A stretch of DNA of 64,000 nt from an uncultured Bacilli bacterium (GTDB taxonomy: Bacteria; Bacillota_I; Bacilli_A; RF39; UBA660). Where the stretch lies: assembly GCA_934098455.1 (NCBI GenBank), contig CAKOOU010000002.1:2570-66569 (forward strand), written 5' to 3'. Made by a program: the position numbers and the translations under genes. How positions within the stretch are numbered: position 1 is the first letter of the stretch; each line of letters begins with the position of its first letter. Below, in pieces: positions 49,611 to 49,943 of the stretch. The notes under the pieces are model-generated. The model was not told where the DNA came from. It did no database searches and saw only the letters and a list, made by a program, of their open reading frames with translations.

Positions 49611-49624
49611 CTTCCTTTATTTTA

Positions 49625-49844
49625 CAAATATATTATATAATAATTAATTTTAAATTAACATGGGCTTATAGCACTACATATATTAAAACATACTACATAT
49701 AAAATATTTGTCGAACACACAAAAAAATCATATTTTTTCTTCTTTTATACCCCCCCCCCCGAACAAATTTTCGAGATCGGGAGAGAAGTATATGATTTTT
49801 GATTTTTTTATGAATAGAAAATTATTTGCGAATTAAAATGTACA
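49625..49844 (-). promoter_or_regulatory. Conserved ~220-nt 5' leader/promoter region of paralogue B (copy 2 of 2)
   Basis: Aligns with 17281-17507. Hairpin arms at 49753-49764 and 49779-49790. Confidence 0.65.
49752..49762. repeat. 11-nt C (plus strand) / G (sense strand) homopolymer
   Basis: Counted directly: a, then c x11, then gaaca. The paralogous copy reads CCCCTTCCCC at 17401-17410. Confidence 0.95.
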
Positions 49845-49943
49845 AATTCTAATTCTTTTTGGTATTTCTACCTTAATAAAATATTATCAAATATAAATTA
49901 TTTTGTAAATAATTTATTAACATTTTATGATACTTTTATTAAT

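What the first reader, a model, noticed from the sequence alone, without database searches (positions are those of the whole stretch)
49611..49943. Leader copy 2 carries an 11-nt G:C homopolymer forming one hairpin arm: candidate phase-variable or expression-tuning tract
Seen in sequence:
- Plus strand 49752-49762 is eleven consecutive C (G11 in the mRNA sense), in a window where G+C is only about a quarter.
- The paralogous position upstream of gene A reads CCCCTTCCCC.
- In copy 2 the G-run pairs with CUUCUCUCCCGA (12 bp, four G-U pairs).

Established knowledge: homopolymeric G/C tracts of 9 nt or more are classical slipped-strand mispairing sites. They drive phase variation of surface proteins when located in promoters, leaders or ORFs.

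Inference: tract-length changes would alter stem register or length, or promoter/leader spacing. This could switch or tune expression of the 641-aa TasA-like surface protein. Alternatively, the run simply arose from the CCCCTTCCCC version by two T-to-C changes that perfected the stem.
Basis: partly seen in the sequence, partly recalled or inferred. Interest (0 to 1): 0.65.

Follow-up and report, generated by a model that had tools for sequence, protein, structure and literature searches.

The report
Slippery G-run in leader RNA hairpin
An 11-G run forms one arm of a conserved RNA hairpin in the long 5' leader of a secreted-protein gene family of an uncultured human-gut Firmicute. Its length is the only difference between otherwise identical strains, so it is a real slippage hot-spot that may switch or tune the gene through RNA structure; that effect is not yet shown.

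Summary
C11 lies at 49750-49760, G11 in the mRNA sense. It is the only G/C run longer than 5 nt in a window of 25% G+C.

The run is not in a promoter. It lies about 114 nt into a roughly 276-nt 5' leader transcribed from a conserved sigma-A promoter. There it forms the 3' arm of a helix with a 10-nt pyrimidine arm, inside a compound, terminator-like hairpin.

The same module, with G8-G12 runs, precedes many paralogues and orthologues in gut metagenomes. All variation in the pyrimidine arm is C<->U, which keeps pairing with G. The outer stems covary.

At two loci, sequences identical over about 4 kb differ only in the run (G10/G11 and G11/G12). Orthologues of this copy carry G8, G10 and G5AG4. 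The interrupted copy-1 tract is invariant in 7 samples plus the window, so the pure run is a slippage hot-spot.

Folding models predict that a change of one G shifts the helix register. I judge this a new variant of simple-repeat (SSR) phase variation, closest to the H. pylori RepG/tlpB G-repeat.

The parts
49881..49909 (-). Sigma-A promoter P1 of the leader: TTTACA, a 17-nt spacer with TG, then TAATAT
   Evidence: Consensus scan. The same -35/17/TGn/-10 geometry, with different spacer sequences, occurs in all leader types. The inferred start of transcription is near 49874.
49861..49872 (-). 5'-terminal GNRA hairpin GGUAGAAAUACC
   Evidence: Folds in every MFE structure. It is conserved in most leader types.
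49830..49855 (-). Optional second hairpin, containing the GUACA...AAUUCGCAA motif
   Evidence: It is present in some leader types only.
49810..49821 (-). Anti-start box UUUUCUAUUCAU, perfectly complementary to the start codon plus three codons
   Evidence: the repeat finder pair I3: 12 nt, 100% complementary. Chance expectation is about 1e-4 per leader. Two fully compensatory pair changes occur in L006 (UACGAUUCAU / AUGAAUCGUA), and copy 1 has a G.U pair.
49790..49800 (-). 5' arm of the basal stem (AAAAAUCAUAU) of the compound hairpin
   Evidence: the repeat finder pair I4: 11 nt, 100% complementary. The stem covaries between types: AAGACUUUAU/AUAAAGUCUU, AAAUUAUAUCUCU/AGAGAUAUAAUUU and AAAAUUAUAUAA/UUAUAUAAUUUU.
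49777..49788 (-). Pyrimidine (C/U) arm CUUCUCUCCC plus GA; this is the partner of the G-run
   Evidence: RNAalifold consensus helix of 17 pairs. All variation is C<->U opposite G.
49763..49776 (-). Apical loop. It contains a conserved UUG (AUG in copy 1 and L033) two codons before the run
   Evidence: There is no Shine-Dalgarno upstream.
49750..49760 (-). G11 homopolymer (C11 on the + strand), the 3' arm of the clamp helix; this is the finding
49739..49749 (-). UAUAAAAGAAG. UAUA pairs with the UAUA that precedes the C/U arm. GAAG (49742-49739) is the alternative Watson-Crick partner of CUUC
49723..49733 (-). 3' arm of the basal stem (AUAUGAUUUUU), running into the U-tract
   Evidence: pair I4.
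49715..49727 (-). U7 tract followed by GUGUGU; with the hairpin it forms a terminator-like module
   Evidence: Conserved in all types, including relatives without a G-run.
49624..49711 (-). Extra AU-rich hairpin domain, found only in the window-type leaders. It includes the palindrome TTAATTTAAAATTAA (49644-49658)
   Evidence: the repeat finder pair I2 and folds. It is absent from the P0016 and P0086 leaders.
49610..49615 (-). Shine-Dalgarno GGAAGG of the 637-aa gene
   Evidence: dG -9.0 with the anti-SD.
47685..49598 (-). 637-aa secreted or surface protein: SipW-type signal junction GLTYAYF, a shared N-module and a variable C-terminal part
17259..17559 (-). Leader copy 1 with its promoter, upstream of gene A. 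Its tract is interrupted: GGGGAAGGGG at 17402-17411

Best explanation
**What it is.** The G11 run is the 3' arm of a 'clamp' helix. Its partner is a 10-nt pyrimidine arm. The helix lies inside a conserved, compound, terminator-like hairpin: A-tract, AU-rich basal stem, clamp, U7, then GUGUGU. The hairpin sits in the roughly 276-nt 5' leader of a gene for a SipW-type secreted protein. The leader starts at its own sigma-A promoter. It also carries a 12-nt box that pairs with the start codon region.

**Shown.**
- The anatomy described above.
- Its conservation across paralogues and strains.
- The pairing pattern (C<->U opposite G, covarying outer stems).
- The pure run changes length by slippage faster than any other site in its surroundings.

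**Inferred.**
- The run length sets the register of the clamp.
- The outer CUUC of the pyrimidine arm pairs either with the distal Gs or with a downstream GAAG.
- This changes how tightly the hairpin abuts the U-tract.
- Through that, run length alters read-through, and possibly exposure of the ribosome-binding region.
- Gaining or losing one G would then switch or tune each paralogue independently.

I put about 0.55-0.6 on tract length affecting expression by some route. I put 0.4 on this specific RNA-register/attenuator route.
For: **Anatomy**
- Promoter.
- Folding: z-score -3.68 for both leaders.
- Basal stem and anti-start box.

**Family-wide module**
- Runs of G8-G12 occur in L004-L007, L013-L031, L033 and L045.
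- Every G run of 7 nt or more in 240 kb of this lineage's DNA lies in this hairpin, always on the sense strand.

**RNA pairing**
- A 17-pair consensus helix shows only C<->U changes opposite G, or G->A opposite U.
- The basal stems differ in sequence but stay complementary in four types.

**Hypermutability**
- P0016 locus: L013 and L014 (G10) against L015, L017, L019 and L020 (G11) are otherwise identical over 4.56 kb.
- P0086 locus: L023 (G11) against L024 and L026 (G12) are otherwise identical.
- 8-11 A/T runs of 7-8 nt in the same loci never vary.
- Both alleles occur within the same assembly pipelines.
- The interrupted GGGGAAGGGG is invariant in 7 samples plus the window.

**Register modelling**

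| Leader | P(CUUC paired to the G-run) |
|---|---|
| P0016 | 0.53 at G10, 0.00 at G11 |
| win_c2 | 0.79 at G10, 0.52 at G11, 0.17 at G8 |

The MFE structure flips between G10 and G11.

**Precedent.** In H. pylori tlpB, the G-repeat length in a 5' UTR sets regulation through pairing with a C/U-rich loop (PMC8295292).
Against:
- At equilibrium the basal stem next to the U-tract is predicted to form at every tract length (P 0.6-0.96). Any switch must therefore be kinetic or partial.
- In this copy, SD exposure is predicted to be independent of tract length (0.57-0.61).
- The G:pyrimidine helix can slide, which could buffer length changes.
- The simple terminator scan calls no terminator here.
- More distant relatives have the same hairpin and U-tract without any G-run (L036), or no module at all (L034/35). 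The run is therefore not essential to the module.
- Homopolymer lengths in short-read assemblies carry some error risk.
Confidence: 0.4

Rival explanations
1. **Structural arm with neutral slippage.** The G-run is needed only as a partner for the pyrimidine arm of a leader hairpin; the hairpin could be an attenuator, a stabiliser or a processing site. G pairs with both C and U in any register, so changes of 1-2 nt are tolerated. The observed polymorphism is then a by-product with no regulatory role.
For: - The basal stem and overall hairpin are predicted at all lengths.
- SD and AUG accessibility in this copy do not depend on n.
- Tract lengths cluster tightly at 10-11, which is about the length of the arm.
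- Interrupted alleles (copy 1, L003) keep the pairing and persist.
- Relatives manage without a G-run.
Against: - Pure runs of 9-12 persist in six diverged leader types of a 25% G+C genome, even though A opposite U would pair better.
- The natural alleles G10/G11 straddle the predicted register flip.
- The setting favours a contingency function: a large, recombining family of secreted proteins in which each gene has its own tract.
Confidence: 0.33
2. **Frame-setter of a leader mini-ORF (ribosome-gated terminator).** This idea was raised by earlier notes of this scan for similar cassettes. A tiny ORF starts at the conserved UUG/AUG in the apical loop and runs through the G-run. Run length modulo 3 would decide where its ribosome stops:
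- right after the run;
- inside the 3' basal arm (the G11 allele here, at UGA 49729-49727); or
- beyond the U-tract.

The stopping point would decide whether the terminator-like stem can form.
For: - A start-capable NUG lies at a fixed place before the run in all types: UUG in five and AUG in two.
- The three frames end at three distinct places relative to the hairpin.
- In P0016 the G11 frame runs to 8 nt past the main AUG, while G10 stops at once.
Against: - There is no Shine-Dalgarno. Anti-SD dG is 0 or higher, against -7 to -12 kcal/mol for the main genes.
- The start codon sits in the 14-nt loop of a stable helix.
- The stop pattern is what an AT-rich sequence gives by chance.
- No peptide conservation can be separated from nucleotide conservation.
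Confidence: 0.12
3. **Promoter-spacer phase variation.** The run would be the spacer of an internal promoter (TCGAAA ... TATAAA), as in the Neisseria porA/opc or T. pallidum tpr poly-G promoters. Its length would then set promoter strength.
For: - TATAAA directly follows the run in four types.
- With TCGAAA as the -35, the spacer would be 16-20 nt for G8-G12 (sequence).
Against: - TATAAA lacks the -7 T and is not called by the scan.
- UAUA(AA) pairs with the UAUA/UUUAUA that precedes the C/U arm, and it changes to UUA/UAA in L033.
- The -35-like hexamer is absent in L006/L007.
- A strong conserved promoter exists 114 nt upstream.
Confidence: 0.04
4. **Assembly or sequencing artefact.** The length differences would be miscalled homopolymers in short-read metagenome assemblies. 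The tract would in truth be fixed.
For: Long G runs are error-prone on Illumina platforms. All comparison sequences are metagenome contigs.
Against: - Both alleles recur in several independent samples and within the same assembler or pipeline.
- The differences reach 3 nt (G8 against G11).
- A base substitution (G5AG4) sits at the same site.
Confidence: 0.06
5. **Invertible DNA switch.** The 12-bp inverted repeat (49810-49821 / 49587-49598) would flank a segment flipped by a recombinase, as in C. difficile cwpV. The G-run hairpin would be the terminator of one orientation.
For: A perfect 12-bp inverted repeat that covaries between types. cwpV offers the precedent of a leader terminator that depends on orientation (PMC2784873).
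Against: - All of the roughly 35 assemblies examined have the same orientation.
- Copy 1 keeps the pair only as an RNA G.U wobble.
- An inversion would carry the SD onto the wrong strand.
Confidence: 0.02

Closest known systems
H. pylori tlpB 5'-UTR G-repeat targeted by the sRNA RepG (PMC8295292)
   Same: A variable homopolymeric G-repeat (about 6-16 G) lies in an mRNA leader. It pairs with a C/U-rich sequence. Repeat length sets the outcome after transcription, giving gradual control of a surface-related protein.
   Different: Here the C/U-rich partner is in cis, on the same leader, and forms a hairpin inside a terminator-like module. No trans sRNA is known. The organism is a Gram-positive, spore-forming gut Firmicute. 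The module is repeated in front of many paralogues. The effect on expression is untested.
Simple-sequence contingency loci with poly-G/C in promoters or ORFs: Neisseria porA/opc, Campylobacter, Bordetella fim (own knowledge); T. pallidum tpr (PMC7864442)
   Same: A G/C homopolymer of 8 nt or more stands ahead of surface-protein genes, and its length differs between close strains.
   Different: The tract is neither between -35 and -10 nor in the main ORF. It is transcribed and base-paired in the 5' UTR.
C. difficile cwpV switch (PMC2784873)
   Same: The promoter lies upstream of a long leader. The proposed ON/OFF decision is whether an intrinsic terminator forms in the leader of a surface-protein gene in a clostridial-type gut bacterium.
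   Different: cwpV switches by site-specific DNA inversion. Here no inversion is seen, and the variable element is a homopolymer.
Mycoplasma hyorhinis vlp family (own knowledge)
   Same: A multigene family of variable surface proteins. The 5' regions are highly conserved, and each carries its own homopolymer, which allows independent switching of each paralogue.
   Different: The vlp tract is poly-A in the promoter spacer. Here it is poly-G in a leader RNA hairpin.
Ribosome-dependent attenuators (E. coli pyrBI/pyrE type) and STAB-SD 5' stabilisers of B. thuringiensis cry3A (own knowledge)
   Same: A leader hairpin with a U-tract lies ahead of the gene, with a possible mini-ORF. A purine or G-rich element could bind the 16S rRNA tail.
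   Different: There is no SD for the mini-ORF. Nothing was tested for stabiliser function.

Membership tests
SSR-mediated phase-variable (contingency) locus | Uninterrupted homopolymer long enough to slip (about 8 nt or more for G/C) | tested here: met
   G11 at 49750-49760.
SSR-mediated phase-variable (contingency) locus | Tract length polymorphic between closely related strains while the flanks are constant | tested here: met
   G10/G11 and G11/G12 are the only differences over about 4 kb. This locus shows G8, G10 and G11. The interrupted allele is invariant.
SSR-mediated phase-variable (contingency) locus | Length heterogeneity within one population (reversible, high-frequency switching) | not testable with these tools
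SSR-mediated phase-variable (contingency) locus | Tract length changes expression (ON/OFF or graded) | not testable with these tools
   Only thermodynamic models are available. Reporter or RNA data are needed.
SSR-mediated phase-variable (contingency) locus | Classical position: in the promoter spacer or inside the ORF | tested here: not met
   The tract lies about 114 nt downstream of the promoter and 152 nt upstream of the ATG.
Intrinsic terminator / transcription attenuator in a leader | Stable stem directly followed by a U-tract, between promoter and RBS | tested here: met
   An 11-bp basal stem runs into U7. The arrangement is conserved and covaries.
Intrinsic terminator / transcription attenuator in a leader | Canonical compact G+C-rich hairpin (loop 3-8 nt) as scored by terminator scans | tested here: not met
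   The scan finds no terminator-like sites in 49500-50100. The hairpin is about 80 nt long and compound, with an AU-rich base.
Intrinsic terminator / transcription attenuator in a leader | A mutually exclusive antiterminator structure, or a factor that controls read-through | tested here: inconclusive
   Two registers (clamp against CUUC:GAAG) are nearly isoenergetic. The basal stem persists in both at equilibrium.
RepG/tlpB-type G-repeat riboregulation | G-repeat in a 5' UTR pairing with a C/U-rich RNA segment | tested here: met
   The cis C/U arm pairs with the G-run in a 17-pair consensus helix.
RepG/tlpB-type G-repeat riboregulation | A trans-acting sRNA supplies the C/U-rich partner | not tested
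Any described RNA family (Rfam 15) | Match at or above a family's gathering score | tested here: not met
   There were no matches in the window. Only noise at E of about 1 or higher was found in 49500-50050.
TasA/camelysin (Pfam Peptidase_M73) N-terminal module, for the downstream gene | Profile match above the curated cut-off | tested here: inconclusive
   The 637-aa protein has no Pfam or NCBIfam hit. Paralogue D scores 36.9 bits against a cut-off of 22.5, and it is 50% identical to residues 4-176 of this protein. The fold search gives only weak adhesin/pilin beta-sandwich hits.

The most novel reading that the evidence does not exclude
Each member of a large, recombining family of secreted or surface proteins in an uncultured human-gut Firmicute carries its own cis-acting 'homopolymer-register riboswitch'. 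This would be a slippage-prone G-run whose length, to the single nucleotide, decides between two folds of a leader attenuator: the clamp or the terminator-competent stem. It may also decide the release of a leader box that masks the start codon. The result would be combinatorial, heritable but reversible ON/OFF states written in RNA structure rather than in promoter spacing or reading frame. The terminated leader RNAs carry sequences complementary to the family's ribosome-binding and start regions, so they might also act in trans on sibling mRNAs.
Probability: 0.2. Interest if true: 0.85.

Novelty: new variant of a known kind. Interest (0 to 1): 0.62.

Why it matters
Phase variation through simple repeats is known mainly from Gram-negative pathogens and mollicutes. 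There it acts through promoter spacing or frameshifts.

Here a hypermutable G-run is built into a conserved, structured 5' leader RNA. The leader stands in front of many paralogous secreted-protein genes of an abundant, uncultured commensal of the human gut. If tract length controls the leader fold, this would be a cis counterpart of the H. pylori RepG/tlpB mechanism. It would also show how gut Firmicutes diversify their surface within a host.

The idea is directly testable with amplicon sequencing and leader-reporter fusions. Even if the variation is neutral, the leader is an undescribed cis-regulatory RNA. Its parts are a promoter, a GNRA hairpin, an anti-start box, a compound terminator-like hairpin and the RBS. 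The covariation support for this structure is good.

Tried and rejected
**Searches that found nothing useful**
- Rfam at gathering score and at E up to 10 gave nothing real.
- Two DNA scans of GTDB genome contigs with leader cores gave 0 hits and then 5 chance hits in unrelated taxa (L008-L012). The lineage is not in that collection.
- The metagenome-contig scan gave one orthologue (L005).
- The viral-contig scan gave one chance hit (L041).
- NCBIfam had no hit for any paralogue.
- No paper in the held library links SipW-type proteins with homopolymer phase variation.

- As a result there is no census of leader copies in the window's own genome, no read-level test of heterogeneity and no RNA-seq.
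- An exact look-up of the 637-aa protein and of P0019 found nothing on record.

**Ideas considered and rejected or downgraded**
- *The G-run as an anti-anti-SD.* The C/U arm is a perfect 10-nt complement of the SD region in the P0016 and P0086 leaders. There, modelled SD exposure jumps at n of about 9-10. In this copy the complementarity is poor and the modelled exposure is flat, so I do not use this idea for the finding.
- *Internal promoter with the tract as spacer.* Rejected; see the rivals.
- *Invertible segment between the 12-bp inverted repeats.* Rejected because the orientation is uniform and copy 1 keeps the pair only as a G.U wobble.
- *Leader peptide starting at AUG 49732.* It is not conserved in L006/L007.
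- *Mini-ORF running through the run.* It lacks an SD.
- *MITE-like insertion.* The module always has the same orientation and the same position relative to the family genes.
- *Spo0A box TTCGACA after the U-tract.* It is not conserved in the other leader types.
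Full report
**1. Observation**

The + strand carries eleven consecutive C at 49750-49760. This is two bases to the left of the coordinates given. The window is 25.0% G+C and the leader 20.9%. 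Apart from three C5 runs, this is the only G/C homopolymer of 5 nt or more in 64 kb. C8 is expected 0.03 times in dinucleotide-preserving shuffles.

The paralogous CCCCTTCCCC is at 17402-17411, upstream of gene A (15129-17258, minus strand).

The two leaders align over about 230 nt at roughly 82-90% identity. That is much higher than the similarity of the genes they precede.

**2. Anatomy of the leader (mRNA sense, minus strand)**

- **Upstream boundary.** The upstream gene rpoZ (49982-50182) ends with its own simple terminator.
- **Promoter.** Next comes a sigma-A promoter: TTTACA, 17 nt with TG, then TAATAT (49909-49881). The same geometry recurs with unrelated spacer sequences in every leader type I recovered. 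I take it as real and place the start of transcription near 49874. The G-run is therefore about 114 nt inside a 5' UTR of about 276 nt, not in a promoter.
- **5' end.** The transcript begins with a GNRA hairpin, GGUAGAAAUACC (49872-49861).
- **Anti-start box.** UUUUCUAUUCAU (49821-49810) is perfectly complementary to AUGAAUAGAAAA, the start codon plus three codons (49598-49587). Chance expectation is about 1e-4 per leader.
  - In the diverged L006 leader the box reads UACGAUUCAU and the gene starts AUGAAUCGUA. That gives two fully compensatory pair changes, with Arg AGA changed to CGU.
  - In copy 1 the single difference is a G.U wobble.
- **Compound hairpin.** Its parts, in order:
  - an 11-bp basal stem, AAAAAUCAUAU/AUAUGAUUUUU;
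  - the pyrimidine arm;
  - a 14-nt loop;
  - the G-run;
  - UAUAAAAGAAG;
  - then U7 and GUGUGU.
- **3' part.** Window-type leaders add a further AU-rich hairpin domain before the SD (GGAAGG, 49615-49610).
- **Overall folding.** Both leaders fold much better than shuffles (z = -3.68).

**3. The module is family-wide and is an RNA structure**

The 637-aa product has more than 1200 unnamed homologues, almost all from human-gut metagenome assemblies. Looking up contigs that encode identical proteins or neighbours gave orthologous and paralogous leaders.

In 240 kb of this lineage's DNA, every G run of 7 nt or more lies in this hairpin, and always on the sense strand. RNAalifold on 12 distinct modules returns a 17-pair helix: UAUA plus the C/U arm, paired with the G-run plus UAUA. 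In that helix every change is C<->U opposite G, or G->A opposite U.

The basal stem next to the U-tract differs completely between types but stays complementary:

| Type | 5' arm / 3' arm |
|---|---|
| Window copy 2 and its orthologues | AUCAUAU / AUAUGAU |
| P0016 | AAGACUUUAU / AUAAAGUCUU |
| L006 | AAAUUAUAUCUCU / AGAGAUAUAAUUU |
| L033 | AAAAUUAUAUAA / UUAUAUAAUUUU |

More distant relatives keep the hairpin, U-tract and GUGUGU without a G-run (L036). Others lack the module altogether (L034/35). The G:pyrimidine clamp is thus a lineage-specific elaboration of an older, terminator-like leader module.

Rfam has no family for it.

**4. Tract length varies where nothing else does**

| Locus | Alleles seen |
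|---|---|
| This locus (orthologues) | G11 (window), G10 (L005), G8 (L004), G5AG4 (L003) |
| P0016 locus | L013, L014 = G10; L015, L017, L019, L020 = G11; otherwise identical over 4.56 kb |
| P0086 locus | L023 = G11; L024, L026 = G12; otherwise identical |
| Copy-1 locus | GGGGAAGGGG in seven independent samples and the window; L045 has a pure G10 |

- In L003 the A pairs with a U of the arm.
- The P0016 and P0086 loci contain 8-11 A/T runs of 7-8 nt, and none of them varies.
- Both alleles occur within the same assembly pipelines.
- The whole leader at the copy-1 locus is identical in those seven samples.

This is the signature of slipped-strand mutation: pure tracts slip and interrupted ones do not. 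It also indicates that the interrupted copy-1 tract is derived.

The caveat is that these are short-read assemblies.

**5. What a length change would do (models only)**

With ViennaRNA I varied the run from 3 to 15 G in four to six leader backgrounds, depending on the measure.

- **Basal stem.** The stem abutting the U-tract is predicted at all lengths (P 0.6-0.96).
- **Register.** The outer CUUC of the arm toggles between the distal Gs (the clamp) and the downstream GAAG, and the pattern is non-monotonic.

| Leader | P(CUUC paired to the G-run) |
|---|---|
| P0016 | 0.53 at G10; 0.00 at G11-12; 0.55-0.79 at G13-14 |
| This copy (win_c2) | 0.79 at G10; 0.52 at G11; 0.17 at G8 |

- **MFE.** The MFE structure flips between G10 and G11. 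In the clamp state the sequence between the run and the basal stem becomes a large bulge. In the P0016 type the clamp also borrows half of the basal stem. This should weaken a terminator, but that step is inference.
- **SD exposure.** It responds to tract length only in leaders whose C/U arm is a perfect complement of the SD region (P0016 and P0086; threshold at n of about 9-10). It does not respond in this copy.

**6. Rivals**

- **(a) Neutral slippage in a register-tolerant helix.** This remains a serious rival (0.33).
- **(b) Leader mini-ORF.** Earlier notes of this scan proposed a mini-ORF running through the run. Here a UUG/AUG is conserved two codons before the run, and the three frames end at three different places. 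However, there is no SD (dG 0 or higher, against -7 to -12 for the real genes), and the start lies in the loop of a stable hairpin. I keep it at 0.12.
- **(c) Internal promoter spacer.** TATAAA lacks the -7 T, pairs in the RNA, and changes in L033. I give it 0.04.
- **(d) Artefact.** 0.06.
- **(e) DNA inversion between the 12-bp repeats.** The orientation is uniform in about 35 assemblies, and copy 1 keeps the pair only as a G.U wobble. I give it 0.02.

**7. The gene and its setting**

The product has a signal-anchor that ends in GLTYAYF. It has an N-module 50% identical to paralogue D, which hits Pfam Peptidase_M73 (camelysin/TasA). Its C-terminal part is variable.

An AlphaFold model (pLDDT 73.8) is rich in beta-sandwiches. 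It has only weak matches to Gram-positive adhesin and pilin domains.

The cassette of promoter, leader and gene is present, absent or replaced between strains (L001 and L002). A 99%-identical CDS sits at another locus behind a different leader type. Three of its five amino-acid differences fall in the first seven residues, so the leader and the first codons move as one block. That fits the pairing between the box and the start codon region.

Many metagenome contigs break inside the leader, as expected for a multi-copy repeat.

**8. Comparison with known systems**

- **Closest in mechanism:** the H. pylori tlpB leader G-repeat, whose length sets regulation through pairing with the C/U-rich loop of RepG (PMC8295292). 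Here the C/U partner is in cis.
- **Also related:**
  - the cwpV leader-terminator switch, which uses DNA inversion (PMC2784873);
  - promoter poly-G tracts of T. pallidum tpr genes (PMC7864442);
  - the Mycoplasma vlp family (own knowledge).
- **Membership as a classical contingency locus:** met for tract type and inter-strain polymorphism; not met for position; untestable here for switching and for an expression effect.

**9. Verdict**

- **Real and non-random.** The run is the slippage-prone arm of a conserved leader RNA hairpin.
- **Odds.**
  - That its length matters for expression by some route: about 0.55-0.6.
  - The specific register/attenuator route: 0.4.
  - Neutral variation: about 0.33.
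- **Class.** New variant of a known kind.
- **Interest.** 0.62.

Noticed in passing
window 49810-49821 vs 49587-49598 (copy 1: 17466-17477 vs 17247-17258): A 12-nt leader box is perfectly complementary to the start codon plus three codons, 211 nt away. It shows two fully compensatory pair changes in the L006 leader and a G.U wobble in copy 1. It probably masks the start codon in the full-length mRNA.
   Followed up: partly
L001, L002 (downstream of rpoZ); L006; L007: The cassette of promoter, leader and gene is an indel between strains. L002 goes from rpoZ to the rhomboid gene without it, and L001 has other genes there. A 99%-identical CDS (P0003) lies after xseB behind a different leader type, so the leader and the first ~7 codons are exchanged as a block.
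   Followed up: partly
window 49764-49766 (UUG) through 49727-49729 (UGA): A possible 12-codon mini-ORF (UUG UUC G11 ... UGA) runs through the G-run. A start-capable NUG is conserved at this place in all leader types, but there is no Shine-Dalgarno.
   Followed up: partly
window 49709-49715: TTCGACA, the reverse complement of the Spo0A-box core TGTCGAA, lies just after the U-tract in window-type leaders. It is not conserved in the other leader types.
   Followed up: no
It could be an operator.
   Followed up: no
L021, L022, L029-L032, L050, L004: Many metagenome contigs end inside the leader or the hairpin. This fits a multi-copy repeat, or coverage loss at the G-run.
   Followed up: no
L013-L031 (P0016 and P0086 leaders): In these paralogue leaders the C/U arm CUUCUCCUCC is a perfect 10-nt complement of the SD region GGAGGAGAAG. 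Modelled SD exposure jumps when the run reaches 9-10 G. This is not so in the window's copy 2.
   Followed up: partly
window 53636-53726 (+): A tRNA-Ser(GCU) gene lies between paralogue D and the next gene, on the opposite strand.
   Followed up: no
L036 2302-3748: A relative carries a Peptidase_U4 gene followed by a sigma-factor gene, an arrangement like spoIIGA-sigE. The lineage is therefore probably spore-forming.
   Followed up: no
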